The position numbers were made by a program, and so were the translations under genes. A stretch of 64,000 nt of DNA from an uncultured delta proteobacterium (GTDB lineage: Bacteria; Desulfobacterota; Binatia; UBA9968). Below the pieces are notes generated by a model. The model did no database searches. It was not told the DNA's origin and was given only the letters and a program-made list of their open reading frames with translations. The stretch spans positions 4,501 to 68,500 of the forward strand of contig CAWERH010000039.1 of the NCBI GenBank assembly GCA_963811315.1. The letters run 5' to 3'. Positions 2,968 through 29,215 of this stretch are shown in pieces (within the stretch, counting starts at the first letter, position 1; each line of letters opens with the position of its first letter).

Positions 2968-3960
2968 ATGACGCTTCGGAGTCGTAAATCCAAGTTTCTT
3001 GTCTGCTTTATTTTGGCTGTTGTTATTCTCACCGGCACCCATACGGCTGCCCTCGCCCAGGACAAAATTCGCGCCGCCTATAGTTCGATCAGCGGGATTT
3101 TTACTCCGGTGTGGATCGCCAGCGATCTGCGGCTCTATCAAAAGTATCAGACCGACGCCGATCTCGTGTACATCGGCGGTTCGGCGGTGGCGGTGAGTGC
3201 GTTGATCGCCGGTGAAATCGATTTTATCTACGGCGGAGCCGATCCGATTATTGCCGGTATTTTGGGTGGCGCGGATCTCACGCTGGCGGGATTCATCTCC
3301 AATAAGACACCGATCAGTCTCTATGTTGGCCCTGGGCTTACCAAAGTCGAAGATCTGAAAGGCAAAACCGTGGCGGTGACCCGGTTGGCTTCGAGCACTG
3401 CCTATATGGCGAAGGTTTGCTTTGGCCAGTATCGCTTGGAGCCGGTGAAGGATATCCCGTTGATTCAATCGGGCGGCTACCCGGAATCGCTGGCGATGCT
3501 GCAAGCCGGACGCGTACAGGGCGCGATGCTATCGCCGCCGTTTACCTATAAAGCCGAGGCTCTTGGCTTCAAACGCATCTGGAACGGCTCCGGCGTGGAG
3601 TATCCGTCTTTCGTCCTGGCGACCCGCAAAACATTCATCCGTGACTCCGCCGATCGAGCACAAAGGGCTTTTAACGCGGTCGCCGAAGGCGTGCACATCT
3701 TCAGAACCGACAAGGAGCGGGCCATTCGCGTCATGGCGAAATACACCAAGGTCAACGACCGAACGATTCTTGAAAATACCTACTTGGATAACAAGGACGT
3801 CTACAGCCCCAACATGCGCCCGACCGCGAGCGGCGTAAAACCGATTCTGGATATTCTGGCAGCGTCCAATCCGAAGGCCGCAGCGGCGAAGCCGGAACAA
3901 TTTTTCGACGTGACCCTGTCACGGCGTTTGGAAGAGAGCGGCGTGATGAAAAAGTTCTAA
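2968..3960 (+). CDS. NMT1/THI5-like (SsuA/TauA-type) periplasmic substrate-binding protein
   Basis: 330 aa with signal peptide and DKIRAAYSSISG...DLKGKTVAV motifs. Member of a large paralog family in this window. Confidence 0.85.
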   Translation: MTLRSRKSKFLVCFILAVVILTGTHTAALAQDKIRAAYSSISGIFTPVWIASDLRLYQKYQTDADLVYIGGSAVAVSALIAGEIDFIYGGADPIIAGILGGADLTLAGFISNKTPISLYVGPGLTKVEDLKGKTVAVTRLASSTAYMAKVCFGQYRLEPVKDIPLIQSGGYPESLAMLQAGRVQGAMLSPPFTYKAEALGFKRIWNGSGVEYPSFVLATRKTFIRDSADRAQRAFNAVAEGVHIFRTDKERAIRVMAKYTKVNDRTILENTYLDNKDVYSPNMRPTASGVKPILDILAASNPKAAAAKPEQFFDVTLSRRLEESGVMKKF

Positions 3961-3965
3961 GCGGT

Positions 3966-5006
3966 TCACGTCATATTGTAAAATCGTTTGGCATTCTCGC
4001 TGAAAACTTTTCGCTTGACCCGTTCCGATAGATCGCCCCTTTCCCAGAATTCGGGGATGTCCTTGGCGAACGCGCCGGCTTCGCGCTCGTGGGGGAAGTC
4101 GGTGGGATACATCAGGTAATCCTCGCCCATCTCGCGCACGACGACATCGAGGGTCTTTTCATCGGTTTCACAGGTAATGTAGATGTTGCCGTTCTTGAAG
4201 TAGTCGCTGGGCTTCTTGCTCAGCGGAAAATGTCTGCGTTTGCGATCGATGTGGAATTTCTCATCCATTCTATCCATCATGTACGGAATCCATCCAGCGC
4301 CGGCTTCGAGGAATCCGATTCTCAGCTTCGGATAAAGGTCGAAGACACCGTCGAGGACGACGCTGGTAAGCTGGATCATCTGCGCGATCGGATGTTCGAG
4401 CGTGTGGATCATCGACATGGTCTGGAGAAAATCGAAACCCAAACCGCGGCTCACCGCCCCGTGCACGGTCAACGGTACGTTCAGATCCTGCGCTTCTTTA
4501 TAAATCGGATGGAAATCCTGATGGCCATAGCCTTTATTCAGCATGGTCACCGCGGGCAAGAGGCCCGCAACCATGCGCTGTTCTTTGACCGCGCGGCGCA
4601 GTTCGGCGGCGGCTTCCGGCGGATTGTGCACCGGCAGCAACGCCACGCCTTTCAATCGGGCGTCGACTTTGCAGTAACGATCGAAGAGCCAGTTGTTATA
4701 CATGCGCGCCACGACGCAGGCCCAATCGGGATCTTGGATCAAGCCCAGGGACAGCCCGGCGGTCGGATAGAGCACCGCGGCGGAGATCTTCGAGCCCTCG
4801 ATGAACTGGATCCAACTATCGGAGGTAACCTTGGTGACCTTGTCGATGCCGCGCACAAAGCCGCGCGGCCAGCCGTCGAGCGAGGGAAAAATTGAAAAAG
4901 TCCCGGTGCGCCGATGGCCTTTATAATCTCCATCAAAGTATTGCTCTAGCTCCGCGTCGGTTTCCAATACGTGGCCGTCCGCATCGATTACAGTGACTCC
5001 ATCCAT
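3966..5006 (-). CDS. amidohydrolase-2 family protein
   Basis: 346 aa, MDGVTVIDADGHVLE... with HxH start and a C-terminal DFPHE acid/His region. Intact ORF. Confidence 0.85.
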   Translation of the reverse strand: MDGVTVIDADGHVLETDAELEQYFDGDYKGHRRTGTFSIFPSLDGWPRGFVRGIDKVTKVTSDSWIQFIEGSKISAAVLYPTAGLSLGLIQDPDWACVVARMYNNWLFDRYCKVDARLKGVALLPVHNPPEAAAELRRAVKEQRMVAGLLPAVTMLNKGYGHQDFHPIYKEAQDLNVPLTVHGAVSRGLGFDFLQTMSMIHTLEHPIAQMIQLTSVVLDGVFDLYPKLRIGFLEAGAGWIPYMMDRMDEKFHIDRKRRHFPLSKKPSDYFKNGNIYITCETDEKTLDVVVREMGEDYLMYPTDFPHEREAGAFAKDIPEFWERGDLSERVKRKVFSENAKRFYNMT

Positions 5007-5205
5007 CTTATGAATCCTCCATCAGCGCGCTTTGGAAAAGCTTTTTCGTTTTGGCTTAGCACCAGCGCGAGAAGGGTGTCAATTCGCCGGATGGTGTTTC
5101 CGATGGGTAGTGACTTATGCGACGTGTGGCATGATCGAAAGTCCGGTTTTGACCGCGCCGCGGCTTTGTATTAAGTATCAGGAAGCCAGGAGGGAACGAG
5201 AGAAG

Positions 5206-5322
5206 ATGGATGCTGCGAATCTGCAAGACAAGATCGAAGCGACCGTTAAGTCTGGCAAAGACAAAATGTATTTCGATTTGTTCTTACTTGGCGCGGGTCT
5301 TTCAAAAACGCGTGAGGCATAA
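5206..5322 (+). CDS. small hypothetical protein (38 aa), possible leader or small ORF
   Basis: ATG at 5206 follows SD AGGAGGG (5188-5194). It encodes MDAANLQDKIEATVKSGKDKMYFDLFLLGAGLSKTREA and lies upstream of amidohydrolase 5364. No homology recognised. Confidence 0.25.
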   Translation: MDAANLQDKIEATVKSGKDKMYFDLFLLGAGLSKTREA

Positions 5323-5363
5323 TAAGAATTTAAATATCTTCATACAGTAAGGAGATCACGAGC

Positions 5364-6452
5364 GTGGGAATTATCGACGCAGACACTCATATCGACGAAA
5401 CGGACGCGACTTGGGAATACATTCAGGAAGACGACTTGCCCTACAAGCCGTCGACGGCTTATCCATCGAATCCGGACCCAAAACTGCCGCCGGCGCGTTA
5501 TTGGGTGATCGACGGCAAGCGTCAGGTGCGCTTCATTCGCAGCGATAAAGATTCGGGCACGACCGTGGCGACCCGCGAGCTGCTGGATGTCAAAGCACGC
5601 CTGAAGCATATGGATGAGTTGGGCACGGACATACAGGTGATTTATCCGACGTTGTTTCTCATGGAAGCGACGGAAAAGCCGGAAATCAATACCGCGATGC
5701 GACGCAGCTATAATCGTTGGTTGGGCGAGCGCTGCGGCGAATCGGGCGGCAGATTGCGTTGGGTGTGCATGCCGCCGCTGCAGAATATGGACGCGACTGT
5801 CGAAGAACTGACCTGGGCTAAAGAGCATGGCGCCTGCGGTGTTTTGAAAAAAGGTGACCGGGAAGTGGGTAAATATCCGGCCGATCCATACTTTGAACGG
5901 CTGTATGCCGAAGCCGAGAAACTCGATATGCCGATCTGTCTGCACACCGGATCCGGGATTCCGGATTTTTCGCCGGCGCGAGAATTCTCCCACGGTCAGT
6001 TCATGCGCACGAAGGCGGCAGTGATCAATGGAGTGCTCGGCCTGGTGCTGCACAAGATCCCCTTAAAGTTCCCCAAGCTGCGCATTGGCTGCATCGAAGC
6101 CGGTTCGATGTGGGCGCCGTTCGTGGCTTACGATTTAAAGCGCCAGGCTTTAAAACAGCAGGGACGTGAGTCGGTAGGGGTTCTCGGTGTGCCGCTGATC
6201 GACATTCCGGCGAACGTCTTCAAAGACAACCGAATCTATGTGACGTGTCAAGTGGACGAAGATTTGCCCTACATCCTCAAAACCATCGGTGAAGATAATT
6301 TGATGGTCGGATCGGATTACACCCACCGCGACCCGTCAATGGAACTGGAGTTCCGCAAGGAATTGGAAGGACGCGCCGACAAAGGCGACATCCCGCAGGC
6401 GTCGGTGCAGAAGATTCTTTACGACAACCCGAAGGCGTTCTATGCGCTATAA
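5364..6452 (+). CDS. amidohydrolase-2 family protein
   Basis: 362 aa, GTG start after SD AAGGAG: VGIIDADTHIDETD...YPTLFL...MVGSDYTHRDP. Intact. Confidence 0.85.
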   Translation: MGIIDADTHIDETDATWEYIQEDDLPYKPSTAYPSNPDPKLPPARYWVIDGKRQVRFIRSDKDSGTTVATRELLDVKARLKHMDELGTDIQVIYPTLFLMEATEKPEINTAMRRSYNRWLGERCGESGGRLRWVCMPPLQNMDATVEELTWAKEHGACGVLKKGDREVGKYPADPYFERLYAEAEKLDMPICLHTGSGIPDFSPAREFSHGQFMRTKAAVINGVLGLVLHKIPLKFPKLRIGCIEAGSMWAPFVAYDLKRQALKQQGRESVGVLGVPLIDIPANVFKDNRIYVTCQVDEDLPYILKTIGEDNLMVGSDYTHRDPSMELEFRKELEGRADKGDIPQASVQKILYDNPKAFYAL

Positions 6453-6522: not shown

Positions 6523-7074
6523 ATGATCATTCTCAGTCCGGAAGGAAAAGCGCAGACCTCAGGGGCAAAAATCGCGAGCTTGCCGCAGTTCACCGAACTG
6601 CGCGGCAAAGTGGTCGGTTGGCTCGACAACAGCAAGCCCAACGCCGACAAGCTGGCGGAACGGTTTGGCGAGCTTTTAAAAGAAAAATACGGCGTGGCCA
6701 ACATGATTACCAGGCGCAAACTGACCGCGCAGCAAGGCGCGCCGAAACAATATCTCGACGAGCTCGCATCGCAGGCCGACTTTGTCATCTGCGGCCTGGG
6801 TGATTGAGGCTCGTGCACGTCGTGGAGTGTCCACGACTCCCTCGAAATTCAAAAGCGCGGCCGTTTTGCGATCACGCTGATCACCCACGCTTTCGTGGCG
6901 CTGGCAAAATCCGAGAAGGAAGCTTTTGGCGCGCCCGATCACCCGGTGTTGGTCGTGCAGCATCCTATCGGCACGGTCAAAATCGAAGAAGTTAACAAGA
7001 AGGCCGAGGCGGCCTTCGATCAAGCTGGTAAAAATCCTGCTCGACGCCGGAAACGGCGCGGTCAAAGTCGCTAG
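6523..7074 (+). CDS. UGSC-motif selenoprotein (UGSC-family (seleno)protein), copy 1; in-frame UGA at 6805-6807 read as selenocysteine
   Basis: The ORF tool stops at TGA 6805-6807 (..FVICGLGD*). The same frame continues GSCTSWSVHDSLEIQKRGRF... to TAG 7072-7074. The downstream peptide is conserved with paralog 18780-19343. A SECIS-like hairpin sits 11 nt after the UGA. SD AGAGGAG lies 6 nt before the ATG. Confidence 0.7.
6819..6837 (+). other. candidate bacterial SECIS stem-loop GUCGUGG-AGUGU-CCACGAC
   Basis: A perfect 7-bp stem with a 5-nt G-containing loop starts 11 nt 3' of the UGA. The 27 nt tcgtgcacgtcgtggagtgtccacgac are identical to paralog 19071-19097, while flanking synonymous sites have diverged. 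Confidence 0.6.
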
Positions 7075-7220: not shown

Positions 7221-7303
7221 CGGAAGGGCGACTTACAGTTGGCACAGTCAGGTTATTCTGGACGAAAGGTGACGGCGGGATTTGAGGGAACGTTTACGCA
7301 AAA

Positions 7304-8357
7304 ATGGCAGAACAACCACTTCAAGCGGAACGATTCGAAATTCCCGACGACCTTTGGGCGGCGCAGGCTTTTTTTGAAGAAAAGGGATGGTCCGATGGTT
7401 TGCCGATCATTCCGCCGACGGAAGAGCGGGTGGCGCAGATGCTCGGCGGCGACGACCCGAAAACCGGACGAGTTGATCGGCGCGGTGCCGCCGCGCTGGG
7501 CGCAGGCGAGCGTCGAGAAGATCGCGATCAATGGCGTCATGGCCGGATGCAAACCGGAGTACATGGCAACCCTGATTGCCGCGGTCGAAGCGATCACCGA
7601 TCCCAAGCTCAATCTTTATGCGTTGCAGGCGACCACGGGCGGACCGGCGGTGATGATCATCATCAACGGCCCGATCCGCCATAAGCTCAACGTCAACGGC
7701 GGGCCCAACGCGTTGGGCGAAGGGTGGCGCGCCAACGCCACCATCGGCCGGTTCGTGCAATTGATCAAACGCAATATCGGCGGCTCCTATCCGGGCACCA
7801 CCTGCAAGGCGACGCTTGGCTGGCCGGGAAAATATTCGATCTGCGTCGGCGAAAATGAAGAGGCGAGTCCGTGGGAACCGCTGCACGTGGAGCGCGGTTT
7901 CAAAGCCGAGCAAAGCACGGTGACGGCGATCAGCGCCGATGCTTCAATACGAGCGTCGGATTTGGACAGCTCGAAAGCGGAAGGCGTGCTGATCAATTTC
8001 GCGCAGAAAATGGACGGCCCGTCCGGGCCGGAAGCGATCATGGTCATTTGCCCGGAGCATGCCAAGATCATTGCCGATGACGGCTTCAGTAAGAAAGACG
8101 TGCAGAAATTTATCTGGGAGCGCGCCGCGTACCGGATGAAGGATTTGCCGGACGAGACCTTCGCGCAACGGGTCAAACGGCGCAGCGATCTGAAGCTCAC
8201 CCGCGACAGCATCATTCCGGTGACCGATAGGCCGGAGGACATACTCGTCATCGTCGCCGGCGGTGACGGCTCGCAGTCGCAGTACATCCACGTCTGGGGT
8301 CAGAGCACGCCGGAAGGCGGGTCGACGCGCAGCGTCACGAAACTCATACGGGATTAA
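7304..8357 (+). CDS. conserved hypothetical protein genetically linked to the UGSC selenoprotein (partner, copy 1); frameshift at the A4 run 7460-7463
   Basis: MAEQPLQAERFEIPDDLW..GLPIIPPTEERV (ORF 7304) continues in ORF 7239-8357 as ..ELIGAVPPRWAQASVEKIAINGVMAGCKPEY...GWPGKYSICVGENEE... It is paralogous to 19885-20967 along its whole length. Confidence 0.7.
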
Positions 8358-8405: not shown

Positions 8406-8418
8406 AACGCATTGTCCG

Positions 8419-9440
8419 ATGTCTTACCCTCGCCCGCTTGCGGGAGAGGGAAGGGTGAGGGCGTGCATCGACGCGTTATTAATTATCAGCCTGCTTTTGA
8501 GCTTTGTTGTCCTGGTAGCGAAATTTGCTTCGCCGCCGACAAGCTGCGCATCAGTTACTCGGGCACGACGACGAGCAACGCGCTTCTTTGGGTGACCAAG
8601 GAAGCGAAACTTTTTGACAAGAACGGCATCGACGCGGAAGTGCTTTATCTGGCGGCGTCGCTCGGCCAGACCGCGTTGATCGCGGGCGAGACCCAGTTCG
8701 CGGTCTACACGGGACTGCTGATGACGCCAACCCGCCTGCAAGGCGCCGACGTTACGATGATCGCCGGGTTTCTAAATTATCTGGTCTCGCGCTTGGTCGT
8801 GCGTCCGGACATCAAGACCGCCGCGGATTTAAGAGGCAAACGTTTGGCCGTGTCGCGTTTCGGCACGGCGTCGGATTTCGGTACCCGCTTGATGGTGTCC
8901 AAGCTCGGTTTGAATCCCGACACCGACGTCACGATCTTGCAGATCGGCGACACGCCCACCCGGGTCGCCGCACTGATGGCCAAGAGCGTCGACGGCGCGA
9001 TCTTCGATCCGCCCGATCACAAAAAGGCCATCGAAAACGGCGGCCGCATCATGATGAACTTGGAGGAAACCGCGATTCCGTATCAGCATGCCGGTTTGAT
9101 GACGACGCGAAAGTACATCGCCGCCCGGCCGGACATCGTTCGGCGGGTGGTCAAAGCGATTGTCGAGGGCGCCGCGGTGGTGCGCAAAGATCCGGAGACC
9201 ACCAAGCGGGCGCTGTCGATCCGCATGCGCATCAAAGATCCCAAAGACCTCGAAGAAACCTATCAGCAGCTGCGCGGCTTCACGCAAGCCAAACCCTATC
9301 CAAGCCTGGAAGGTTTCAAAGCGATCTTGAACGATTTGTCCAAGCGCGTGCCCGCGGCGAAAAATGCCGATCCGAAAGATTTTGCCGATCTCCGGTTCGT
9401 CGAAGAACTGGATAAGTCGGGTTATATCGATGGACTCTAA
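8419..9440 (+). CDS. NMT1/SsuA-like periplasmic substrate-binding protein; frameshift near 8545
   Basis: The signal-peptide frame MSYPRPLAGEGRVRACIDALLIISLLLSFVVLVAKFA shifts into AADKLRISYSGTTTSNALLWV... The gene is a tandem paralog of 9494-10471. Confidence 0.75.
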
Positions 9441-9470
9441 AGGCGTGAGGCTTGAGGCGGGAGGCTAGAG
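9441..9470. repeat. 7-mer tandem array AGGCGTG AGGCTTG AGGCGGG AGGCTAG
   Basis: It follows the TAA stop at 9438-9440 directly. Confidence 0.4.
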
Positions 9471-9493
9471 TCGTGTGGACAAAGACGTATTTT

Positions 9494-10471
9494 ATGCTTG
9501 AAAAGTTAACGCCGATTCTCACTGTAATTCTGGCTGCAGTTTTGTTGCTGCGCTCCGCATCGGCCGGCGCCGCCGATAAGATTCGTATCGGTTACTCCGG
9601 CGCGACGGTCAGCAACGCGATGCTCTGGGTGACCGACGAAGGCAGACTGTTTCAAAAAAACGGCATCGATCCGCAAATCCTCTATTTGCAAACGACGCTC
9701 GGACAGACGGCGATGATCGCCGGTGAAATCGACATGTGCGTCTACTCCGGCAGTCTGCTCTCGGCGGCGCGCTTGCAGGGAGTCGACGTGGTGATGGTCG
9801 TAAGTTTTCTCAACAAGCCGCTCTATCGGCTGGTGGTTCGCCCCGAGATTCGCACGGTCGCCGATCTCAAGGGAAAACGGCTCGGCATCACGCGCTTCGG
9901 CACTGTCACCGATTCGATGTCCCGGCTCCTGATCAACAAACTCGGACTCGATGCCGAGAAAGACGTTTCTTATATTCAGGTCGGTGATGTGCCAATCCTG
10001 TTAGCTTCCTTGTCGTCAGGCAAGATTATCGACGGCGCGATCATTCAGCCGCCTTATTATTTGAAGGCGGTGGCCACCGGCATGCGCGTTTTGGTGAATA
10101 TGCAAGAGATGGACATCCCGGTCCAACAAACCGGGCTCAATACCACGCAGAAGTTCATCGCGAAAAATCCCGATGTCGTGCGGCGGGTAGTCAAGTCGGT
10201 GATCGAAGGGATCCATCTGATGCGCACCAATCCCGCCGTGGCCAAGCGGGCGCTCTCCAGGCGCATGCAGATCAAAGATGAAAAAGAGATCGAAGACACC
10301 TATCAATTGCTGAAGAGTTTCGTGCAGATCAAGCCGTATCCGACTCTGGAAGGCTTCAAAACCATTTTCGAAGATCTGGCGAAAAGAGTTCCGGCGGCAA
10401 AGAACGCCAATCCCAAGGAATTTGTCGACACCCGGTTTATCGAAGAGTTGGATAAGCTCGGGGTTTATTGA
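9494..10471 (+). CDS. NMT1/SsuA-like periplasmic substrate-binding protein
   Basis: MLEKLTPILTVILAAVLLLRSASAGAADKIRIGYSG... Intact. The ATG at 9494 is preferred over the ORF-tool start at 9452 because it gives a proper signal peptide. Confidence 0.85.
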   Translation: MLEKLTPILTVILAAVLLLRSASAGAADKIRIGYSGATVSNAMLWVTDEGRLFQKNGIDPQILYLQTTLGQTAMIAGEIDMCVYSGSLLSAARLQGVDVVMVVSFLNKPLYRLVVRPEIRTVADLKGKRLGITRFGTVTDSMSRLLINKLGLDAEKDVSYIQVGDVPILLASLSSGKIIDGAIIQPPYYLKAVATGMRVLVNMQEMDIPVQQTGLNTTQKFIAKNPDVVRRVVKSVIEGIHLMRTNPAVAKRALSRRMQIKDEKEIEDTYQLLKSFVQIKPYPTLEGFKTIFEDLAKRVPAAKNANPKEFVDTRFIEELDKLGVY

Positions 10472-10524
10472 CGCATTGGAGCGCCAGTGATACGCGATGC
10501 TTGACGGATAATTGGGGAGGAACG

Positions 10525-11520
10525 ATGTTGAGAATACAAAGATCGCTGATGGGTGTCGCTTTGATTGTGGCTTTCGCCACTCCTGCCCTGGGGCAAAGCC
10601 TGCCCAAAGTCCGCGCCGCCTACACATCCATAAGCATCCAATTCGATGCGGTTTACATCATGAAGGAGCTCAACCTGCCGCGGAAATACGGCTTGGATGC
10701 CGAAATTCTTTTTGTGCCGGTGAGTTCGCGCGCCGTGCAGGCGGCGCTCGCGGGCGAGATTCAATTTATCACCAGTGGCGGCGTGGCCAATATCAATGCG
10801 AACGTCACAGGCGCCGATTTCACCGGGCTTACCGCGACACTCAATACTTTTGTCTTCAAGGTCTTCGCGAGCCCGGAGATCAAAAAGCCTGAGATGTTAA
10901 AGGGCAAGAAGGTCGGCATTTCCCGTCTCGGCGGCGCCAGCGATTTTTCTATTCGCTATGCGCTAAATTACTGGGGTCTCGTCCCCGACAAAGACGTTGC
11001 CATCATCCAGGTGGGCGGCGAACCGGAGTCGCTTCTGGCGCTACAAAACAAAGCCGTGGACGCGGCGATCTTATCGGAACCGTTTGCAAGCCTGGCAAAG
11101 CGCAATGGCTCAGTGCTGCTGGCTGATTTAAGTCAGCTCGGCGTGCCTTACACGATGCACGGCTTCGGGGTGCGCAAGAGTTACATTCAGGCCAATCGGG
11201 ACGTTGTCGTCCGATTCATGAAAGCCTATCTCGAAGGCATCTATGTTTTCAAAACCAACAAGGACATTGCGTTGAACGTCCTGAAAAAATATACCCGGCA
11301 GGACGATCTTTCCCTCGTACAAGTGGCCTATGAGGAAATGTCCCAGAAGCTTATCCGCAGAGTCCCGTACCCCAACCGCGAAGGGATTCAGACGATCATA
11401 GATCAGCTCGCCAAGACCCGGCCGGAAATGAAAAATCTCAACCCCGGCGACTTCATCGATCCGTCGATCTTGAAAGAAATCGAGGACAGCGGGTTTATTA
11501 AAAAGTTGTATGGAAATTAG
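10525..11520 (+). CDS. NMT1/SsuA-like periplasmic substrate-binding protein
   Basis: ATG at 10525 after SD GGAGG: MLRIQRSLMGVALIVAFATPALGQSLPKVRAAYTS... Intact. Confidence 0.85.
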   Translation: MLRIQRSLMGVALIVAFATPALGQSLPKVRAAYTSISIQFDAVYIMKELNLPRKYGLDAEILFVPVSSRAVQAALAGEIQFITSGGVANINANVTGADFTGLTATLNTFVFKVFASPEIKKPEMLKGKKVGISRLGGASDFSIRYALNYWGLVPDKDVAIIQVGGEPESLLALQNKAVDAAILSEPFASLAKRNGSVLLADLSQLGVPYTMHGFGVRKSYIQANRDVVVRFMKAYLEGIYVFKTNKDIALNVLKKYTRQDDLSLVQVAYEEMSQKLIRRVPYPNREGIQTIIDQLAKTRPEMKNLNPGDFIDPSILKEIEDSGFIKKLYGN

Positions 11521-16007: not shown

Positions 16008-17021
16008 TCAACGGTAGCCGGCATCGTCGGCAGGCAGACCACGTTCTTGGACCTCCACGAGGTAGCGCCAGCAGTCCGGCTGGGTGCCGTCGATGTCGGT
16101 GAAGCCGTAGATGGGGGCGAGCTGTCCGCTGGAGACGACCTTACCCGTCCAGCGCGCAACCTCCGGGTCCGCTGCGAGGGCGGCGACCGCGCGGCCGACG
16201 TAGGTCGGCGACTCGGAGATGCAAAAGTGCGGCATGCGGGCGGTCGCGTCCCGCCAGTTTGCTTCGGTCACGCCGTACGCGTCGAGCATCTTCTCCGAAC
16301 GCAGCCAGCCCGGAGTTACGGCGACGGCCGCGCCGTGGTGCGGGGCCAGCTCGTGACTCTGCGCGAGAGCCATGCGCTGCACGGCGTTTTTGACCAGGTC
16401 GTAGAAGAATCCCACCTGGTGGCGGTACGCCGCGTTGTACTCTGCGGTCCCGTCGGTCATCTCGATGACCAGCCCGCCGGGGCGGCGGATGAGCAGCGGC
16501 AGGGCGTGGTGGCTGGTGATCGCATGCGTGTCGATGCCCAGGCGCAGCATTCGCAGCCCGCCGGCGAGGTCGTGCTCCCACAGCTTGGTGTTGAACTGGA
16601 GGTAGGTGTCGCCGCCCCAGATGTCGTTCACGAGCACGTCGAGGCGGCCGTGGTCTCGGTCGATGCGCTGGACGAGATCGCGCACCTGCTCGCTTTCGAG
16701 GTGATCCACCCGCAAGGCGATTCCCACGCCCCCGGCGGCGGCGATCAGCTCACCGGTCTCTTCGATCGTCTCCGGCCGGTTGATTTCCGACCGGCCTGCC
16801 CGGCTGCTGCGCCCGGTGGCGTAAACTGTCGCACCCGCGCGGGCAAGCTCTACGGCAATCGCACGTCCGGCGCCGCGCGTGGCGCCTGCGACTAACGCCA
16901 CTTTCCCGGTTAATGCTCCAGCTTTTGCTTCATTCTTCGCTGTGGCTTCCATTGGCATTTTCTTCTTGCGCGCACCCTTCCGCGCGCCACGAAACTTAGG
17001 TGCGTTTTCAACAAGCCTCAT
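16008..17021 (-). CDS. short-chain dehydrogenase/reductase (SDR) family oxidoreductase
   Basis: ..GKVALVAGATRGAGRAIAVELARAGATV.. (TGxxxGxG Rossmann motif). The ATG at 17019-17021 overlaps the TGA of the upstream amidohydrolase in an ATGA arrangement. The +strand ORF 15930-16895 is an antisense artefact of ~70% GC. Confidence 0.8.
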   Translation of the reverse strand: MRLVENAPKFRGARKGARKKKMPMEATAKNEAKAGALTGKVALVAGATRGAGRAIAVELARAGATVYATGRSSRAGRSEINRPETIEETGELIAAAGGVGIALRVDHLESEQVRDLVQRIDRDHGRLDVLVNDIWGGDTYLQFNTKLWEHDLAGGLRMLRLGIDTHAITSHHALPLLIRRPGGLVIEMTDGTAEYNAAYRHQVGFFYDLVKNAVQRMALAQSHELAPHHGAAVAVTPGWLRSEKMLDAYGVTEANWRDATARMPHFCISESPTYVGRAVAALAADPEVARWTGKVVSSGQLAPIYGFTDIDGTQPDCWRYLVEVQERGLPADDAGYR

Positions 17022-18779: not shown

Positions 18780-19343
18780 ATGGCGACGATTAAATTTCTC
18801 GATCCCCGAGTGGTGATCAATCCCAAAGACCAGCCGCTGGTGCCGGGTCTGGATACGCTCGAAGGAAAAGTTATCGGCATCATCGATAACGGGCAGGCCA
18901 ATTCGACGACGATGTTTCAAGAGCTGGCGCAACTGATGCAAGAAAAACTTCATACCAAGGAAGTTCTGTTCAAAACCAAACCGACGCACATGCAGGGCGC
19001 GCCGAAACCGATCATGGAAGAAATCCTCAACCGGTGCGACGCGGTGATCACCGGTTTAGGCGCTTGAGGGTCGTGCACGTCGTGGAGTGTCCACGACGCC
19101 ATCGAATTGCAAAAGAAGGGAAAGCCGACGGTAACCCTGTGCCAGTCGATCTTTATGGCGCTGGCGCGCACCGAGGCGAAGTTTTTCGGCATCGCTAAAT
19201 TACCTCTGGTCGAAATCCCGCATCATCCGAGCGGCGGCGCACGGCCTGGTGAGCATCGAGCGGATGCCGAGGGCGCGGTTAGTTTGGTTAATGAGCAGTT
19301 GACGCTGGGTGGGGCGGCGTTGAAGAAGACGCGACAGCGGTGA
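18780..19343 (+). CDS. UGSC-motif selenoprotein, copy 2; in-frame UGA at 19065-19067 read as selenocysteine
   Basis: ..VITGLGA U GSCTSWSVHDAIELQKKGKPTVTL... continues to TGA 19341-19343. The peptide after the UGA aligns with copy 1 (SLEIQKRGRFAITL.. versus AIELQKKGKPTVTL..). SD AGGAGG lies 9 nt before the ATG at 18780. Confidence 0.7.
19079..19097 (+). other. candidate bacterial SECIS stem-loop GUCGUGG-AGUGU-CCACGAC (identical to 6819-6837)
   Basis: It starts 11 nt after the UGA and its nucleotide sequence is conserved between the paralogs. Confidence 0.6.
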
Positions 19344-19465: not shown

Positions 19466-19864
19466 ATGAACGCGAGCCCGGAAGCTGCGGAAAAATCCAA
19501 CCGATGCCGAGCGTTTGCTCTGGCAAAACTTCGTTTCTGGCAAGTTGACGGTTGCAAATTTCGCCGTCAACAACCCTATAGGAAATTACATTGTTGACTT
19601 TGTTTGTTTAGAAAAAAGATTGATTATCGAGGTCGACGGCGGACAGCATGCTGAACATATGAATTACGGATACCGACCGTGATGCTTGGTTACGAAATCC
19701 GAGGGTTATGTAATTTTAAGATTCTGGAACAACGATGTGTCTAAGAAGATAGATGGCGTCAAGGAAGTGATATTTCAATCCTTGCAAAGCACCCCCTACC
19801 TTAGTCCTTCCCCGCAATCGGGGGAGGAATGGTTGAGAAGCTAGGAAGATCGCATCGAGCACGA
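19466..19864 (+). pseudogene. DUF559 (Vsr-like endonuclease domain) gene with at least 4-5 frame disruptions; pseudogene or error-dense
   Basis: Reconstructable as M-TRARKLRKNPTDAERLLWQ|KLRFWQVDGCKFRRQQP|IGNYIVDFVCLEKRLIIEVDGGQHAEH..DRDAWLRN..GYVILRFWNNDV..IFQSLQ across three frames. Each break is at a short homopolymer. The gene sits in a ~540-bp lower-GC insert between the selenoprotein gene and its partner. Confidence 0.55.
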
Positions 19865-19884: not shown

Positions 19885-20967
19885 TTGGAGTTACCGACAG
19901 TGCAAAACCTCACCTCTAACCTCATCGAAGTCGAAGACAGCTGGGAAGCGGTCAATGACTGGTTCTGCAACGAAAAACTGAGTGACGGTTTGCCGATCGT
20001 GCCGCCTACGGCGGAGCGGGTCGAACGAATGCTCGAGCGCGACGAATCGCGGGATCCGCAGGAAGTCATCGGGCCAATCCCGCCGAAGTGGGCGCCTTGT
20101 TCGATCGAGAAGATTGCCATCAATGCGGTCATGGCCGGCTGTTTGCCGGAATATTTGCCGGTGATCATCGCGGCGGTGGAAGCGATCTGCGAACCGCGCT
20201 TCAATCTCTATGGCGTGCAAGCGACTACCGGATACGTCGGCCCGGCGCTCATGCTCAACGGTCCGATTCGCAAAGCACTCAACGTCAATTGCGATGCCGG
20301 CGTGTTTGGTCCCGGCTTTCGCTCCAACGCGACCATCGGCCGCGCCATTCGATTGATTCTCATCACCGTCGGCGGCGGCTACCCGGGCGACACCGATCGC
20401 TCGACTTTTGGCTGGCCGGGCAAGTACACCATGTGCTTTGGCGAAAATGAGGAGAAGAGTCCGTGGGAGCCGTATCACGTGGAGTTCGGTTTTAAACCTG
20501 ACGAAAACAGTGTGACGGTGTTCGGCATCAATGGTTTTTTGCCGATCCACACGGCCGGCAGTCGCGGCGAGCAGGCGCTTGCTTCGCTCGCAGAAGTTAT
20601 TCGCATGCACCACGGCGTGAGTCATCTCGACGTCGGCAGTTTTGGCGGCGGCACACCGCTGGTTGCCCTGGGCGTCGAAGACGCCGAGATCATGGCGCGC
20701 GACGGCATCACCAAGAAACAAGTCAAGGACTTTCTCTGGGAGCACGCGTCGCTCAAATTTTCCGAAGTTCCGGCGCGCCGCAAAGGCCACAAAGACGACG
20801 CCGAGTTGCTGCGCGAATCGCCCAACGTTACCCCCGATGGCGTCGTCCATCTTTCCACGAAGGCCGAAGACATCATGGTCATCGTGGTTGGCGGCAAGCA
20901 TCGCCATTCGGTATTTCTGCCGATGTGGACCGGGCGCAATACGCTGTGCGTGATCAAGCCAATTTAA
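19885..20967 (+). CDS. conserved hypothetical protein genetically linked to the UGSC selenoprotein (partner, copy 2)
   Basis: 360 aa and intact: ..SDGLPIVPPTAERV..EKIAINAVMAGCLPEY..NLYGVQATTG..GWPGKYTMCFGENEEKSPWEPYHVE.. TTG start at 19885. The 19891-21120 minus-strand ORF is antisense. Confidence 0.75.
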   Translation: MELPTVQNLTSNLIEVEDSWEAVNDWFCNEKLSDGLPIVPPTAERVERMLERDESRDPQEVIGPIPPKWAPCSIEKIAINAVMAGCLPEYLPVIIAAVEAICEPRFNLYGVQATTGYVGPALMLNGPIRKALNVNCDAGVFGPGFRSNATIGRAIRLILITVGGGYPGDTDRSTFGWPGKYTMCFGENEEKSPWEPYHVEFGFKPDENSVTVFGINGFLPIHTAGSRGEQALASLAEVIRMHHGVSHLDVGSFGGGTPLVALGVEDAEIMARDGITKKQVKDFLWEHASLKFSEVPARRKGHKDDAELLRESPNVTPDGVVHLSTKAEDIMVIVVGGKHRHSVFLPMWTGRNTLCVIKPI

Positions 20968-21010
20968 TAGCAATTGGAGTAGTGGAGTGATGCGGAAGAA
21001 GATCGAGGAT
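20968..21010. repeat. tandem repeat array (TGGAGTAG/TGGAGTGA then GAGGATG x3) overlapping the start region of the next gene
   Basis: ttggagtagtggagtgatgcggaagaagatcgaggatggaggatggaggatcg. Confidence 0.35.
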
Positions 21011-21999
21011 GGAGGATGGAGGATCGCCCGCGCGGCGGCGATTTTCATGCTCGCGTTTCTGTTCGCCACGGTTTGTAATGCGCAGGAGAAATTTCGCTTT
21101 CCGATCGCTGAATCGTCCAAGACCTTGAGCTATGGTCCGCTCTGGGTCGCCTCGAAGATGGGTTTCTTTGACAAGGAAGGCTTGGACGTGCCGATCGTCA
21201 CCATGCGCGGTTCGCCGCTGGCGATTCAGGCGCTGACCGCCGATTCGATTTATATCGCCAACGCGACCGTCGATACCCTGATCAACGCCTACGAGAAAGG
21301 CGCGGATATCACGATGATCGGCGGGCCTGATCAACGGGCTTGGACTTGAGCATGATCGGCGGCAAGCCCTATAAGACCTATGCCGACCTGCGCGGCACGA
21401 CGATCGGCACGCAGACGCTGACTTCCGGCACTGGATTCGCTCTTCGCTTGGTGCTCAAGGTGCACGGCTTGGAATATCCGCGCGACTACGCGCTGCTCAA
21501 CATCGGCGGCGCTTCGGACCGCTATCAAGCGCTGACGTCCGGTCAAATTTCTTCCGCCCCGGTCGGCGTGCCTCTCGATCTGGTTGCCAAACAGCAAGGC
21601 TTCAACATCATCGGTTATTTTGCCGATGACCAACCGAACTTTCAGTTTAATGTCTACATCGTCAAACGCTCCTGGGCGGAAAAAAACCGGCCGCTGACGG
21701 TGCGCTTCATGAAAGCGATGGCGTCGACCATGCGCTGGATGGCGGACAACCGCGACGCTGCCTGCACCTATCTTTCAAAGGAAATGGCGATCAGCGTCGA
21801 GCATTGCCGCTATGCCTCCGACTACAACTGGAAAAGCCGCATCTGGGACCGCAATGCCGATATCAACATCGAGGGCGTGCGCACGCTGATCAAAATCACC
21901 GCCGAGCAAGGCATTCTCAAAGAACCTTTACCCCAGCCGGCGAAATACCTCGATCAAAGTTATCTTAAGCAGGCGCTGGCGGAACTGGCGAAGAAATAA
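20987..21999 (+). CDS. NMT1-like periplasmic substrate-binding protein (subtype B, paralog of 29216-30186); frameshift near 21335
   Basis: ORF 20987-21349 (..FLFATVCNAQEKF..LWVASKMGFFD..TMIGGPDQR) joins ORF 21340-21999 (LDLSMIGGKPYKTYADLRG...LEYPRDY...). Confidence 0.75.
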
Positions 22000-22056
22000 C
22001 AAGGCGAAGAGGCACGAGGCTTGAGACGGAAAACTACAAGGGATTGAGGAGATCGC

Positions 22057-23058
22057 ATGAGACAATCAACGCGTTTGGGATTTTTGATTTTGTTCTTGAG
22101 CGCGGTGGCTGTCGCCGCTTCCGCGAATGCTCAGGACAAGATACGCATGGGGCTCAGCTCGGTGAGCGGGTTGCACAGCGCCGTGTGGGTCGCGGCGGAA
22201 AAGGGACTGTTTCGCAAGCACGGTATCGACGCCGAAGTGATCGTCACCGGGCAGGGCGGTACTGCCGGTATCAGCGCGCTGATCGCCAACGACGTCCAGA
22301 TAGTCAATTCAGCGGGTGATGTTCTAGTTGCGGCGGCGTTGCGCGGCGGTGACACCGTGATGATCGCGGGGGTCGTCAACAAGGGGCTGCAGCGATTGGT
22401 CACCAAACCGGAGATCAAAGCGCCGGCGGATTTGAAGGGCAAGCGGATCGGCGTCACCCGGATCGGCGCGGTCTCTCATTCGGTTCTGCTGATGATGCTG
22501 CAGCAGTGGAAAATGAGCCCCAGCGACGTGCAGGTCATGCAGCTCGGCTCGTCGCCGAGCATGCTGGCGAGCCTCGACAAGGGCGGCATCGAGGGCGCGG
22601 TGCTGACGATCCCGTCGATGTTCGTCGCCGAGGACCGCGGCTACCGTGTCTTGCTCGATATGGGGGATACCGACATTTACTATCTGCACACCATGGTCGC
22701 GACGACGCGCCAATACATCAAGACCAATCGCGACAAGGTTTTGCGATTTCTCAAAGGGTATGTCGAAGGTATCGCGTTCGTGAAGCAACACAAGAAGGAA
22801 AGTCTGGATATCGTCAAGAAAAAACTTCGGCTTGGCCCGGAGCAGGAACGCAATCTCGAACGGTCCATCGACCTGTTGATAGCGAAATACTACGAGTCGA
22901 TTCCCTATCCGTCGCTGCGCGGCGTCGAAACCGTGCTCGGGTTCGTCGAAAAGGACAACCCGAAAGCGAAAACCGCCGATCCGAAGTCTTTTGTCGATGA
23001 CAGTTTGCTGCGTGAGATCGAAGCCAGCGGGTTCGTCAAAACGCTTTACCAGCGCTAG
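22057..23058 (+). CDS. NMT1/SsuA-like periplasmic substrate-binding protein
   Basis: MRQSTRLGFLILFLSAVAVAASANAQDKIRMGLSS... 333 aa, intact. Confidence 0.85.
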   Translation: MRQSTRLGFLILFLSAVAVAASANAQDKIRMGLSSVSGLHSAVWVAAEKGLFRKHGIDAEVIVTGQGGTAGISALIANDVQIVNSAGDVLVAAALRGGDTVMIAGVVNKGLQRLVTKPEIKAPADLKGKRIGVTRIGAVSHSVLLMMLQQWKMSPSDVQVMQLGSSPSMLASLDKGGIEGAVLTIPSMFVAEDRGYRVLLDMGDTDIYYLHTMVATTRQYIKTNRDKVLRFLKGYVEGIAFVKQHKKESLDIVKKKLRLGPEQERNLERSIDLLIAKYYESIPYPSLRGVETVLGFVEKDNPKAKTADPKSFVDDSLLREIEASGFVKTLYQR

Positions 23059-23082
23059 GAAACGTTCGTTTCGGACAAGCCG

Positions 23083-24079
23083 ATGAAAATTCTCTGCTTT
23101 GGTCTTTTTGCCGTCGGCGTTCGCGCTTATTTTCGGCAGCCATGCCGACGCGCAGGACAAAATTAGAGTGGGGTTGAGCTCGGTGAGCGCTCTTCATGGC
23201 GCCATGTGGGTGGCTGAGCAAAAAGGATTGTTTCGTAAGCATGGCATCGAAACGGAAATCATCGTCACGGGCCAGGGTGCGACGGCGGGAATCGGCGCGC
23301 TGCTTGCCAACGATATTCAGATCGCCAGCGCCGGCGGAGATGCTCTGATTAACGCCGCCTTGCGCGGCGGCGAGACCGTGATGATCGCCGCCGGTATCAA
23401 TAAAGGATTGAACAGGATTATGGTGCGGTCGGATATCAAAACTCCGGCCGACCTTAAGGGAAGAAAGATCGGCGCGACTCGCGTCGGCGCCGTCTCTCAC
23501 TCGGTTCTTTTGATGATGCTCAAGCGCTGGAACATGAGCCCGGCGGATGTTCAGGTTCTCCAGCTCGGTTCTTCGCCGAACATGCTCCAAGCCTTGGACA
23601 AGGGCGGCATCGACGGCGCTGTGATGACGATCCCGTTCGTGTTCATCGCGGAAGATCGAGGTTTTCGCGTTTTAGTCGATCTGGCGGAAACGGATATTTA
23701 TTATCTTCACACGATGATTGCGTCCACGCGAAGCTATATCAAGGCCAATCGCGACAAGGCGTTAAGATTTCTCAAGGGTTTTCTCGAAGGCATCGCTTAT
23801 TTCAAGCATAACAAAAAGGAGAGTCTCGATATCGTCGGAAAAAAACTCCGTGTCAACGCAGACCAAGAGCGGAATCTCGAGCGCTCCTACGATCTTCTGG
23901 CGACGAAATATTACGAAGCCACGCCTTATCCGTCGCTGCGCGGCGTCGAAACCGTGCTCGGAATCGTCGAAAAGGACAATCCGAAAGCGAAAACTGCCGA
24001 TCCGAAATCTTTTGTCGATGACAGCTTGCTCCGCGAGATCGAACAGAGCGGTTTCGTAAAGACGCTGTACAAGAATTGA
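23083..24079 (+). CDS. NMT1/SsuA-like periplasmic substrate-binding protein, tandem near-duplicate of 22057-23058; frameshift in the T5 run 23104-23108
   Basis: MKILCFGL then a shift into LPSAFALIFGSHADAQDKIRVGLSS... The remainder is colinear with the upstream paralog. Confidence 0.75.
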
Positions 24080-29171: not shown

Positions 29172-29215
29172 ATTCTTAGGACCAACCCCATCGATTAAAT
29201 ACGAGAGGGATTCAG

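What the first reader, a model, noticed from the sequence alone, without database searches (positions are those of the whole stretch)
7304..8357. Conserved ~360-aa unknown protein always immediately downstream of the UGSC selenoprotein (two paralogous cassettes)
The genes 7304-8357 and 19885-20967 are paralogs over their full length. Shared blocks include GLPI(I/V)PPT(E/A)ERV, EKIAIN(G/A)VMAGC(K/L)PEY, LY(A/G)(L/V)QATTG, NATIGR, GWPGKY(S/T)(I/M)C(V/F)GENEE and SPWEP(L/Y)HVE. Each follows a UGSC selenoprotein gene on the same strand, separated by 230 bp in copy 1 and 540 bp in copy 2. I do not recognise the family. The invariant Cys in the VMAGC motif together with a Sec-containing small partner suggests a two-component redox or catalytic system. 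Both cassettes are embedded among amidohydrolase and SBP genes, so they may act on the same unknown substrate class. This is my best candidate for an undescribed system in the window.
Basis: partly seen in the sequence, partly recalled or inferred. Interest (0 to 1): 0.8.

Follow-up and report, generated by a model that had tools for sequence, protein, structure and literature searches.

The report
Obligate partner protein of UGSC selenoproteins
Two copies of an unnamed ~355-residue protein lie beside UGSC selenoprotein genes here, and in about 1,800 prokaryotic genera the two families are neighbours or fused, so they are probably the two halves of an uncharacterised selenium-dependent enzyme.

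Summary
Genes 7304-8357 and 19885-20967 are paralogs (45% identity, E 2e-84). Each follows a true UGSC selenoprotein gene with an in-frame TGA and a SECIS hairpin. The large protein ("X") matches no Pfam or NCBIfam model, no PDB sequence and no solved fold. The linkage to UGSC is very strong. X occurs in 1845 genera and UGSC in 1842. Each has the other within 2 kb in 264/300 and 252/300 carriers tried, against fewer than 3 at random places. Gene order varies (46 upstream, 22 downstream of 80 loci). Natural UGSC-X, X-UGSC and X-thioredoxin-reductase fusions exist. The split halves of one natural fusion are predicted to bind (ipSAE 0.75, best control 0.01), with the Sec-equivalent loop in the interface. 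UGSC is homologous to the Sec-bearing C-terminal module of GrdB/PrdB (hhalign 96.4%). X is not related to GrdE/PrdA. My best reading is a two-subunit, thioredoxin-reductase-fed selenoenzyme with substrate-specific paralogs, often next to solute-binding-protein genes. The substrate is unknown. Cys86 is not invariant (285/350). One Chloroflexi MAG holds at least 150 copies.

The parts
6523..7074 (+). UGSC selenoprotein gene, copy 1 (183 aa; Sec codon TGA at 6805-6807, motif GLGD-U-GSC)
   Evidence: Translation with TGA=U. PF24696 147.3 bits, NF041046 127.8 bits against a cut-off of 125. All 9 strain variants fall on third codon positions, 4 of them after the TGA.
6819..6837 (+). SECIS-like hairpin of copy 1 (8-bp stem, GUG loop), 14 nt after the UGA
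   Evidence: Fold. The same hairpin in 71 unique UGSC genes shows compensatory changes (pair 21-27: GC 49, CG 20). The segment is nucleotide-conserved in many soil contigs.
7304..8357 (+). X gene, copy 1 (about 350 aa if read through). Frame of 7304 up to about 7447, then frame of 7449-8357. One extra base at about 7445-7449.
   Evidence: Contigs of related soil strains have one base fewer here, which restores the frame. 29 of 31 strain variants fall on third codon positions.
8412..11520 (+). Three tandem NMT1-type solute-binding-protein genes (8412-9440, 9452-10471, 10468-11520), starting 55 nt after X copy 1
   Evidence: PF09084 E 1e-16 to 1e-20.
18780..19343 (+). UGSC selenoprotein gene, copy 2 (187 aa; Sec codon TGA at 19065-19067, motif GLGA-U-GSC)
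   Evidence: PF24696 140 bits. NF041046 110.2 bits, below its cut-off of 125. 40% identical to copy 1.
19078..19098 (+). SECIS-like hairpin of copy 2 (9-bp stem, GUG loop)
19515..19844 (+). Broken DUF559 gene (two ORF pieces) inserted in the UGSC-X spacer of copy 2
   Evidence: PF04480 E 2.5e-14 and 1.3e-5, on model positions 21-70 and 79-109.
19885..20967 (+). X gene, copy 2 (360 aa, intact), used as the reference for residue numbers
   Evidence: AlphaFold2 model pLDDT 87.4, pTM 0.90.
20987..24079 (+). Three NMT1-type solute-binding-protein genes (20987-21999 split by a frameshift, 22057-23058, 23099-24079), starting 20 nt after X copy 2
3966..6452 (.). Two Amidohydro_2 genes upstream of cassette 1 (3966-5006 minus strand, 5364-6452 plus strand). 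Context only; linkage not conserved elsewhere.
   Evidence: Only 3 of 126 neighbours across taxa are Amidohydro_2.

Best explanation
UGSC and X are the two subunits of one selenium-dependent enzyme. In many organisms they are the two domains of a single polypeptide. UGSC is a small flavodoxin-like alpha/beta protein. It is homologous to the C-terminal Sec-bearing module of the GrdB/PrdB 'selenoprotein B' subunits of glycine/betaine/sarcosine/D-proline reductases. Its selenocysteine sits in a G-x-G-[D/A]-U-G-S-C loop at the start of a helix. X is a ~350-residue protein with no recognisable fold relative. It docks onto UGSC partly by capturing UGSC's otherwise disordered N-terminal strand. X turns its most conserved motifs (PPT, EKIAINAVM-AGC, QATT, the GGG loop) towards the Sec loop, which makes a composite active site. 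I infer that X binds a small-molecule substrate and that Sec reduces it or reductively cleaves it. Sec then forms a Se-S bond with the Cys three residues on. That bond is re-reduced with NAD(P)H by a thioredoxin-reductase-type flavoprotein, which is sometimes fused or adjacent and otherwise the cell's own. Paralogs (5 in this genome, at least 150 in one Chloroflexi MAG) would have different substrates, probably solutes imported through the binding proteins encoded next to them. Shown: gene structure, paralogy, family membership of UGSC, synteny, fusions, homology to the GrdB module, purifying selection. Predicted: the complex and its interface. Inferred: catalysis, electron path, substrate class.
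For: Linkage. X occurs in 1845 of 36145 genera. UGSC lies within 2 kb in 264 of 300 carriers tried (by likeness band 63/75, 186/210, 3/6, 6/9), against fewer than 3 at random places. The reverse count is UGSC in 1842 genera with X nearby in 252/300 (39/63, 72/75, 72/84, 66/75), random fewer than 3. This genome has 5 of 5 pairs. Of 80 loci, 68 have UGSC adjacent on the same strand.

Fusions. UGSC-X, X-UGSC, X-X and X-TrxR proteins exist. Of 149 representatives, 36 carry UGSC sequence. This genome's C11 has an in-frame U-containing fusion. The TrxR parts keep the CAxCDG redox motif.

Complex. The halves of the natural fusion P0283 score ipSAE 0.75 against a best control of 0.01. That mark was reached by 51 of 78 solved complexes and 2 of 108 mismatched pairs. 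The runs agree in at least 93% of contacts and the partner's pLDDT is at least 82. No like complex has been solved. The interface lists the Sec-equivalent Cys107, G108, N109, T111 and S112. On X it lists the equivalents of P41, T42, 67-83, 109-115 and 157-164.

Homology. UGSC against full-length GrdB gives hhalign probability 96.4%, E 1.4e-9, with Sec aligned on Sec. A weak TIGR01917/01918 hit covers the same region.

Sec use. TGA stands at the U position in 1515 of 1797 carriers. The SECIS hairpin covaries. Third-position variants continue after the TGA. selD is present in 19 of 20 relatives.

Paralog expansion beside binding-protein genes.
Against: No biochemical datum exists for either family; reviews up to 2026 list UGSC as function unknown. 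X shows no homology to GrdE/PrdA (hhalign 0.09%), so the Grd/Prd analogy covers only the Sec module. A TrxR gene is near the cassette in only 2 of 80 loci. Neighbours are heterogeneous, so no pathway can be named. The complex was predicted for a Cys-type fusion from another organism, without alignments, and not for the window's own pair. This MAG itself lacks detectable selD, selA, selB and tRNA-Sec. It is 92.7% complete and also lacks tRNA-Phe and tRNA-Ile.
Confidence: 0.6

Rival explanations
1. X alone is the enzyme and uses its own cysteine pair (Cys86/Cys184) as the redox centre. UGSC is only a dedicated thioredoxin-like electron shuttle between thioredoxin reductase and X. This would resemble the AhpF N-terminal domain with AhpC, or thioredoxin with methionine sulfoxide reductase.
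For: Cys86 and Cys184 are both Cys in 249 of 350 relatives (215 unfused plus 34 fused). The U/CxxC motif and the TrxR fusions fit a dithiol relay. In the 633-aa fusions, loss of the CxxC goes with loss of both X cysteines.
Against: Sec-bearing members keep the Sec while Cys86 is Ala, Val or Gly (own C11 fusion; P0303, P0327, P0253). The most invariant X residues are not cysteines: G35, P41, A84, G85, G126, N148, G152, R153, E187, W194. 84% of UGSC genes insist on Sec, which is unusual for a mere carrier. UGSC is predicted to be flavodoxin-like and GrdB-like, not thioredoxin-fold. Neither Cys86 nor Cys184 is listed in the predicted interface.
Confidence: 0.22
2. The pair is not a reductase. It is a metal, iron-sulfur or selenium/sulfur-handling complex. 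For example, it could be a hydro-lyase-like enzyme whose cluster is held jointly by Cys86 and Cys184 of X and by Sec and Cys of UGSC. Or it could be a Se/S carrier.
For: The best, though weak, fold matches of X are Fe-S hydro-lyases. The class I fumarate hydratase alpha subunit 7xky_A gives Foldseek E 1.4e-3, TM 0.25, and VIA Z 4.0, rmsd 5.3 over 191 residues. L-serine dehydratase 4rqo_B and CyuA 9fsl_A give Z 2.6-2.7. The four conserved Cys/Sec positions across the two chains would make a full ligand set.
Against: Z 4 is below the level at which such matches mean anything (note). hhalign of X against the Fumerase domain gives probability 1%. The structural and sequence alignments put Cys86 in different places. 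The TrxR fusions argue for dithiol chemistry.
Confidence: 0.08
3. Copy 1 (7304-8357) is a real pseudogene in this organism rather than a victim of an assembly error, so only cassette 2 is functional in the window.
For: The extra base is in the assembly. The site (CTCGGCGGCG) is not a long homopolymer.
Against: Apart from one base the gene is intact and gap-free against its ortholog (74% and 84% identity). Related strains in two soil studies have the intact frame, and 29 of 31 variants are third-position. At least three other genes in this window are split in the same way: 17018-18114, 20987-21999 and 25370-26519. So are X on C47 and a TrxR-like gene on C52. This points to indel errors in the assembly.
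Confidence: 0.3

Closest known systems
Selenoprotein B components of glycine/sarcosine/betaine reductase and D-proline reductase (GrdB with GrdE, PrdB with PrdA)
   Same: The UGSC protein is homologous to the C-terminal ~90-160 residues of GrdB, with Sec aligned on Sec in a UxxC motif (hhalign 96.4%, E 1.4e-9). Both are Sec subunits that work with a second, larger, substrate-specific subunit. Both depend on a thioredoxin system (established knowledge for Grd; fusions here). Substrate-specific paralogs exist in both.
   Different: UGSC lacks the ~335-residue N-terminal GRDB domain (no PF07355 hit). X is unrelated to GrdE/PrdA (0.09%) and to the GrdB N-domain (0.2%). No GrdA, GrdC or GrdD is in the neighbourhood. 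Carriers are mostly soil, groundwater and marine lineages (Binatia, Acidimicrobiia, Dehalococcoidia, Proteobacteria), whereas the GrdB genes I retrieved came from Bacillota.
UGSC family (seleno)protein, PF24696 / NF041046 ('UGSC-containing protein' of Zhang and Gladyshev)
   Same: The two upstream genes are members. [quoted passage not shown]
   Different: The literature calls it 'likely Trx-like fold'. The model here is a five-strand flavodoxin-like sandwich. A 'UGSC/Unknown_1' fusion was noted in 2008, but its alignment is an image that I could not read. So I cannot tell whether Unknown_1 is X. I found no paper that describes the obligate partner.
Thioredoxin reductase-coupled two-protein systems (AhpF-AhpC; TrxR-Trx-Msr)
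   Same: A TrxR-type flavoprotein with a CAxCDG motif is fused to or adjacent to the enzyme. A small U/CxxC protein sits between it and a larger protein.
   Different: Neither UGSC nor X has a thioredoxin or peroxiredoxin fold or any Pfam match to them. TrxR is nearby in only 2 of 80 loci.

Membership tests
UGSC family (PF24696 / NF041046), for genes 6523-7074 and 18780-19343 | Profile score above the curated cut-off | tested here: met
   PF24696 scores 147.3 and 140 bits (cut-off 25). NF041046 scores 127.8 bits (cut-off 125) for copy 1 and 110.2 bits, below the cut-off, for copy 2.
UGSC family (PF24696 / NF041046) | U-G-S-C motif with Sec encoded by in-frame TGA, followed by a bacterial SECIS hairpin | tested here: met
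   TGA at 6805 and 19065 in GLG[DA]-U-GSC. Hairpins at 6819-6837 and 19078-19098. Covariation in 71 sequences. U in 1515 of 1797 carriers.
UGSC family, as a working selenoprotein in this organism | Sec machinery (selD, selA, selB, tRNA-Sec) present | tested here: inconclusive
   None found over cut-off in this 92.7%-complete MAG. selD with its own TGA is present in 19 of 20 relatives, 11 of 12 in the genus.
X family (unnamed), for genes 7304-8357 and 19885-20967 | Full-length homology and the conserved motifs (DGLP..PPT, AINAVMAG, QATT, NATIGR, GENEE, PW) | tested here: met
   More than 7500 homologs, all 'hypothetical'. 4954 clusters at 50% identity. Invariant columns. Copy 1 is 74% and 84% identical to P0115 in its two frames.
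GrdB/PrdB selenoprotein B (PF07355, TIGR01917/01918), considered for UGSC | C-terminal Sec module with UxxC | tested here: met
   hhalign 96.4%, E 1.4e-9. UGSC 84-177 aligns on GrdB 336-424, Sec on Sec.
GrdB/PrdB selenoprotein B | N-terminal ~335-residue GRDB domain; total length about 430 aa | tested here: not met
   UGSC is 183-187 aa with no PF07355 hit. The TIGR01917 score is 15 bits against a cut-off of 602.
GrdB/PrdB selenoprotein B | Partner is a GrdE/PrdA-type pyruvoyl proprotein (PF09338) | tested here: not met
   X against a GrdE alignment gives hhalign probability 0.09%. No PF09338 hit for X.
Pyruvoyl-dependent proenzyme (self-cleavage at Cys), considered for X by analogy | Autoprocessing before a Cys/Ser to give an N-terminal pyruvoyl group | not testable with these tools
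   This needs mass spectrometry of the protein. Cys86 is Ala or Val in 57 of 350 relatives, which argues against a universal role.
Thioredoxin-fold redox proteins, the literature's guess for UGSC | Thioredoxin fold with CxxC at the start of helix 1 | tested here: not met
   The AlphaFold2 model (pLDDT 86.7) has five beta-alpha units. The top Foldseek matches are flavodoxin-like domains, TM 0.45-0.5. This rests on a predicted structure only.
Class I fumarate hydratase / Fe-S hydro-lyases, considered for X | Shared fold and three Cys ligands of a 4Fe-4S cluster | tested here: inconclusive
   Best VIA Z 4.0, rmsd 5.3, 191 aligned. Foldseek E 1.4e-3, TM 0.25. hhalign 1%. X has only two conserved Cys.

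The most novel reading that the evidence does not exclude
UGSC-X is a widespread, so far unrecognised class of selenium-dependent reductases. Its substrate subunit has a new fold. The class has diversified into substrate-specific paralogs, each coupled to an uptake binding protein, and reaches well over 100 per genome in some Chloroflexi. If so, it is a major unknown route for reductive processing of dissolved organic compounds in soil, groundwater and sea water. It would also explain the largest bacterial selenoproteomes.
Probability: 0.35. Interest if true: 0.9.

Novelty: new variant of a known kind. Interest (0 to 1): 0.8.

Why it matters
[quoted passage not shown] It has had no function and no known partner since its discovery about twenty years ago. 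It almost never occurs without one particular unnamed protein, it is often fused to that protein, and it is predicted to bind it. It is also a stand-alone copy of the GrdB/PrdB Sec module. Together these facts turn an orphan selenoprotein into a defined two-subunit enzyme that can be expressed and assayed. The partner family has 4954 clusters at 50% identity, occurs in about 5% of prokaryotic genera and has no Pfam or NCBIfam model, so it deserves a family definition. Annotation pipelines now truncate or split these genes at the TGA. The expansion to at least 150 copies in one 5-Mb genome would more than double the published upper bound for a bacterial selenoproteome (63). It suggests a large hidden demand for selenium in subsurface Chloroflexi.

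Tried and rejected
X gave no hit in Pfam or NCBIfam at E up to 0.1, nor by PDB sequence search with the single protein and with a profile. UGSC gave no PDB sequence hit either.

Fold searches of the X model found nothing convincing: Foldseek PDB had no match at E up to 0.001, and VIA-align over 48,161 chains had a best Z of 4.0. The ESM Atlas returned only X's own family and no named cluster.

hhalign of X against the Fumerase domain (1%), GrdE (0.09%) and GrdB (0.2%) was negative in each case.

Rfam at gathering threshold found nothing in the window.

I did not resend those rows. I did not send the window's own UGSC, because that tool takes code-11 proteins only. I used the two halves of the natural Cys-type fusion P0283 instead.

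I first placed the frameshift at the A-run 7460-7463. Contigs of relatives and the ortholog alignment moved it to 7445-7449. I rejected programmed frameshifting because relatives have the plain intact frame.

I rejected TrxR as a core third gene: it is nearby in only 2 of 80 loci. I rejected amidohydrolase as a conserved neighbour: 3 of 126.

The supplement figure for the 2008 'Unknown_1' fusion is an image, so its identity with X could not be checked.
Full report
WHAT IS IN THE WINDOW. The ORF map shows copy 2 of the large gene as one open frame, 19885-20967, 360 aa. Copy 1 is not one frame. An ORF from ATG 7304 encodes the first ~47 residues, ending '...PPTEERVAQML'. The rest, from '...ATTRKPDELIGAVPPRW' on, lies in the frame of 7239-8357. 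The span 7304-8357 is 1054 nt, which is not a multiple of three. BLASTP of copy 2 against the two pieces gives 45% identity, E 2e-84, over residues 60-353, and 42%, E 2e-10, over residues 7-56. The ortholog P0115, from an unrelated metagenome contig, matches the first frame over its residues 1-47 (74%) and the second frame over residues 49-349 (84%). Neither match has a gap. The lesion is therefore a single extra base at about 7445-7449 (CTCGGCGGCG).

Contigs of related strains from two independent soil studies have one base fewer at this site and read straight through (tables 4 and 7). Of the strain variants listed inside copy 1, 29 of 31 fall on third codon positions of the second frame. The gene is therefore under purifying selection in nature. 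At least three other genes of the window are split in the same way: the amidohydrolase 17018-18114, the binding protein 20987-21999 and the acyl-CoA dehydrogenase 25370-26519. So are the X gene on contig C47 and a TrxR-like gene on C52. I therefore think an assembly indel is more likely than a pseudogene, but only the raw reads can tell.

THE UPSTREAM GENES. With TGA read as Sec, 6523-7074 and 18780-19343 give proteins of 183 and 187 aa with GLG[D/A]-U-GSC. They are 40% identical. Both match Pfam UGSC at 147 and 140 bits. Copy 1 also passes NCBIfam NF041046, while copy 2 falls below its cut-off. Both have an 8-9 bp hairpin with a GUG loop 14 nt after the UGA.

In 71 distinct UGSC genes from other genomes the same stem is kept through compensatory changes. 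Pair 21-27 is GC in 49 and CG in 20, and other pairs show AU, CG and GU variants. All nine strain variants in UGSC-1 are third-position changes, four of them downstream of the TGA. So the UGA is read through.

This MAG (6.9 Mb, 88 contigs, 92.7% complete) has no selD, selA, selB or tRNA-Sec over threshold. It also lacks tRNA-Phe and tRNA-Ile. By contrast, 19 of 20 relatives (11 of 12 in the genus) have selD with its own TGA, often on small contigs. I read the absence as an assembly gap.

The longer one contains a broken DUF559 gene.

X HAS NO KNOWN FAMILY OR FOLD. X gave no Pfam, NCBIfam or PDB sequence hit. More than 7500 homologs are all annotated 'hypothetical', and they form 4954 clusters at 50% identity. 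The AlphaFold2 model is confident (pLDDT 87.4, pTM 0.90). Even so, Foldseek finds nothing at E up to 0.001, and an exhaustive VIA-align pass gives a best Z of 4.0. The weak top hits are Fe-S hydro-lyases. A profile comparison with the Fumerase domain gives 1%.

LINKAGE TO UGSC. In this genome all five UGSC genes, each with a TGA, are followed on the same strand by an X gene. One pair, on C11, is a single reading frame with U in a UGAC motif.

Across one genome per genus, X is found in 1845 genera of 36 phyla. UGSC lies within 2 kb in 264 of 300 carriers tried (bands 63/75, 186/210, 3/6, 6/9), against fewer than 3 at random places. The reverse count gives 1842 genera and 252 of 300 (39/63, 72/75, 72/84, 66/75), again with fewer than 3 at random. 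In 80 named loci UGSC is on the same strand upstream in 46, downstream in 22, and not seen within 1.5 kb in 12. So adjacency and co-orientation are conserved, but the order is not.

Fusions occur in every arrangement. There are UGSC-X proteins. There are X-UGSC proteins, seen as gene calls that stop at the TGA. There are X-X tandems and X-TrxR proteins in both orders. Of 149 representatives, 36 carry UGSC sequence. The TrxR parts keep the canonical CAxCDG redox motif. A separate TrxR gene precedes the pair in L001, and a TrxR-like fragment follows X on C52. Only 2 of 80 loci have one nearby.

PREDICTED COMPLEX. I therefore sent the two halves of the natural Cys-type fusion P0283. The score was 0.75 against a best control of 0.01. 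That mark was reached by 51 of 78 solved complexes and 2 of 108 mismatched pairs. The runs agree in at least 93% of contacts and the partner's pLDDT is at least 82. No similar complex has been solved, so the pass is not from memory.

The listed interface contains the Sec-equivalent Cys107 with G108, N109, T111 and S112. It also contains the N-terminal strand of UGSC (residues 12-25), which has low confidence in the monomer model. On X it contains the equivalents of P41, T42, 67-83 (the helix that ends in AGC), 109-115 (YG..ATT) and 157-164. Cys86 and Cys184 are not listed.

WHAT UGSC IS. Its model (pLDDT 86.7) is a five-strand parallel alpha/beta sandwich of the flavodoxin-like kind, with Sec at the start of helix 3. 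It is not the thioredoxin fold suggested in the literature. I assembled twelve full-length GrdB sequences, read through their TGA, from Bacillota genomes. hhalign against them gives 96.4%, E 1.4e-9, with UGSC 84-177 on GrdB 336-424 and Sec on Sec. UGSC is thus a free-standing copy of the Sec module of selenoprotein B. X is not related to GrdE/PrdA or to the GrdB N-domain.

CONSERVED RESIDUES. Over 350 relatives, the near-invariant positions are G35, P41, A84, G85, G126, N148, G152, R153, E187, W194 and G202. Cys86 is Cys in 285 and Cys184 in 260. Several Sec-type members have Ala, Val or Gly at position 86. In the 633-aa fusions the loss of the CxxC goes with the loss of both X cysteines. This is a weak correlation and is not corrected for phylogeny.

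CONTEXT. Neighbours across taxa are mixed: TctC 12, FMN_dh 5, luciferase-like 4, SDR 4, Amidohydro_2 3 and NMT1 3, out of 126. Solute-binding proteins recur, however. Three NMT1-type genes start 55 nt and 20 nt after the two window copies. On C47 an NMT1 gene follows X. On C11 the gene after X has a weak TctC match, and on C52 there is a TctC gene. An SBP is the nearest neighbour in 13 of 68 diverse loci by my own profiles of three families.

All but four of the listed UGSC matches carry a TGA. There are 19 copies on one 350-kb contig. Two 20-kb samples of that MAG show Sec-containing UGSC-X fusion genes of 564-595 aa alternating with SBP_bac_5 genes. That MAG has selD. The published upper bound for a bacterial selenoproteome is 63.

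INTERPRETATION. The pair is best read as one two-subunit selenoenzyme. It has a GrdB-type Sec module, a new substrate subunit and a thioredoxin-reductase-type electron supply, and it has diversified into substrate-specific paralogs. The linkage and probable binding are well supported. The chemistry and the substrates are inferred.

In the papers I could search, the UGSC family is known but has no function, and a fusion to an 'Unknown_1' domain was noted in 2008. I found no description of X as the obligate partner.

Noticed in passing
Up to 19 lie on one contig. Many are in-frame Sec-containing UGSC-X fusions that alternate with SBP_bac_5 genes. The published maximum for a bacterial selenoproteome is 63 genes.
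   Followed up: partly
window 17018-18114 (-), 20987-21999 (+), 25370-26519 (+); also G000 C47:65958-66900 and L037:6754-7915: Several genes are split by single frameshifts: an amidohydrolase, an NMT1 binding protein, an acyl-CoA dehydrogenase, another X copy and a TrxR-like gene. This suggests that the assembly is prone to indel errors.
   Followed up: partly
window 19515-19844: A broken DUF559 gene, in two ORF pieces, sits between UGSC copy 2 and X copy 2. It accounts for the longer spacer.
   Followed up: yes
whole genome G000: No selD, selA, selB or tRNA-Sec was found in this 92.7%-complete MAG, although it has five TGA-containing UGSC genes. 19 of 20 relatives have selD, itself with a TGA, often on very small contigs.
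   Followed up: partly
G000 C11:289560-291299 (L035:5560-7299): An in-frame UGSC-X fusion selenoprotein with motif UGAC. The X part has Ala in place of Cys86 but keeps Cys184.
   Followed up: partly
window 6802-6837: The 36-nt stretch from the TGA through the SECIS hairpin has 10- to 20-fold higher summed contig depth in soil metagenomes than its flanks, and the contigs diverge on both sides. So this stretch is conserved at the nucleotide level among many different organisms' UGSC genes.
   Followed up: partly
proteins P0352-P0355 (public JGI gene calls): These full-length UGSC calls show W at the Sec position (GLGAWGSC). The TGA was read as Trp by the gene caller. Most other public calls stop at the TGA or start after it.
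   Followed up: no
proteins P0166, P0177, P0198 and similar (643-1631 aa): The N-terminal half of X (about residues 17-215) also occurs in long proteins with fn3 and Big_2 domains, some labelled Oscillospiraceae. These lack both conserved cysteines and have no UGSC domain.
   Followed up: no
window 2968-3960, 8412-11520, 20987-24079, 29122-30186: At least eight NMT1/THI5-type solute-binding-protein genes lie within 30 kb. No ABC permease or ATPase gene was seen beside the ones I examined.
   Followed up: no
UGSC model: UGSC is predicted to be flavodoxin-like, not thioredoxin-like as the literature suggests. Its first ~22 residues have low confidence alone, but they form the best-defined contacts in the predicted complex.
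   Followed up: partly
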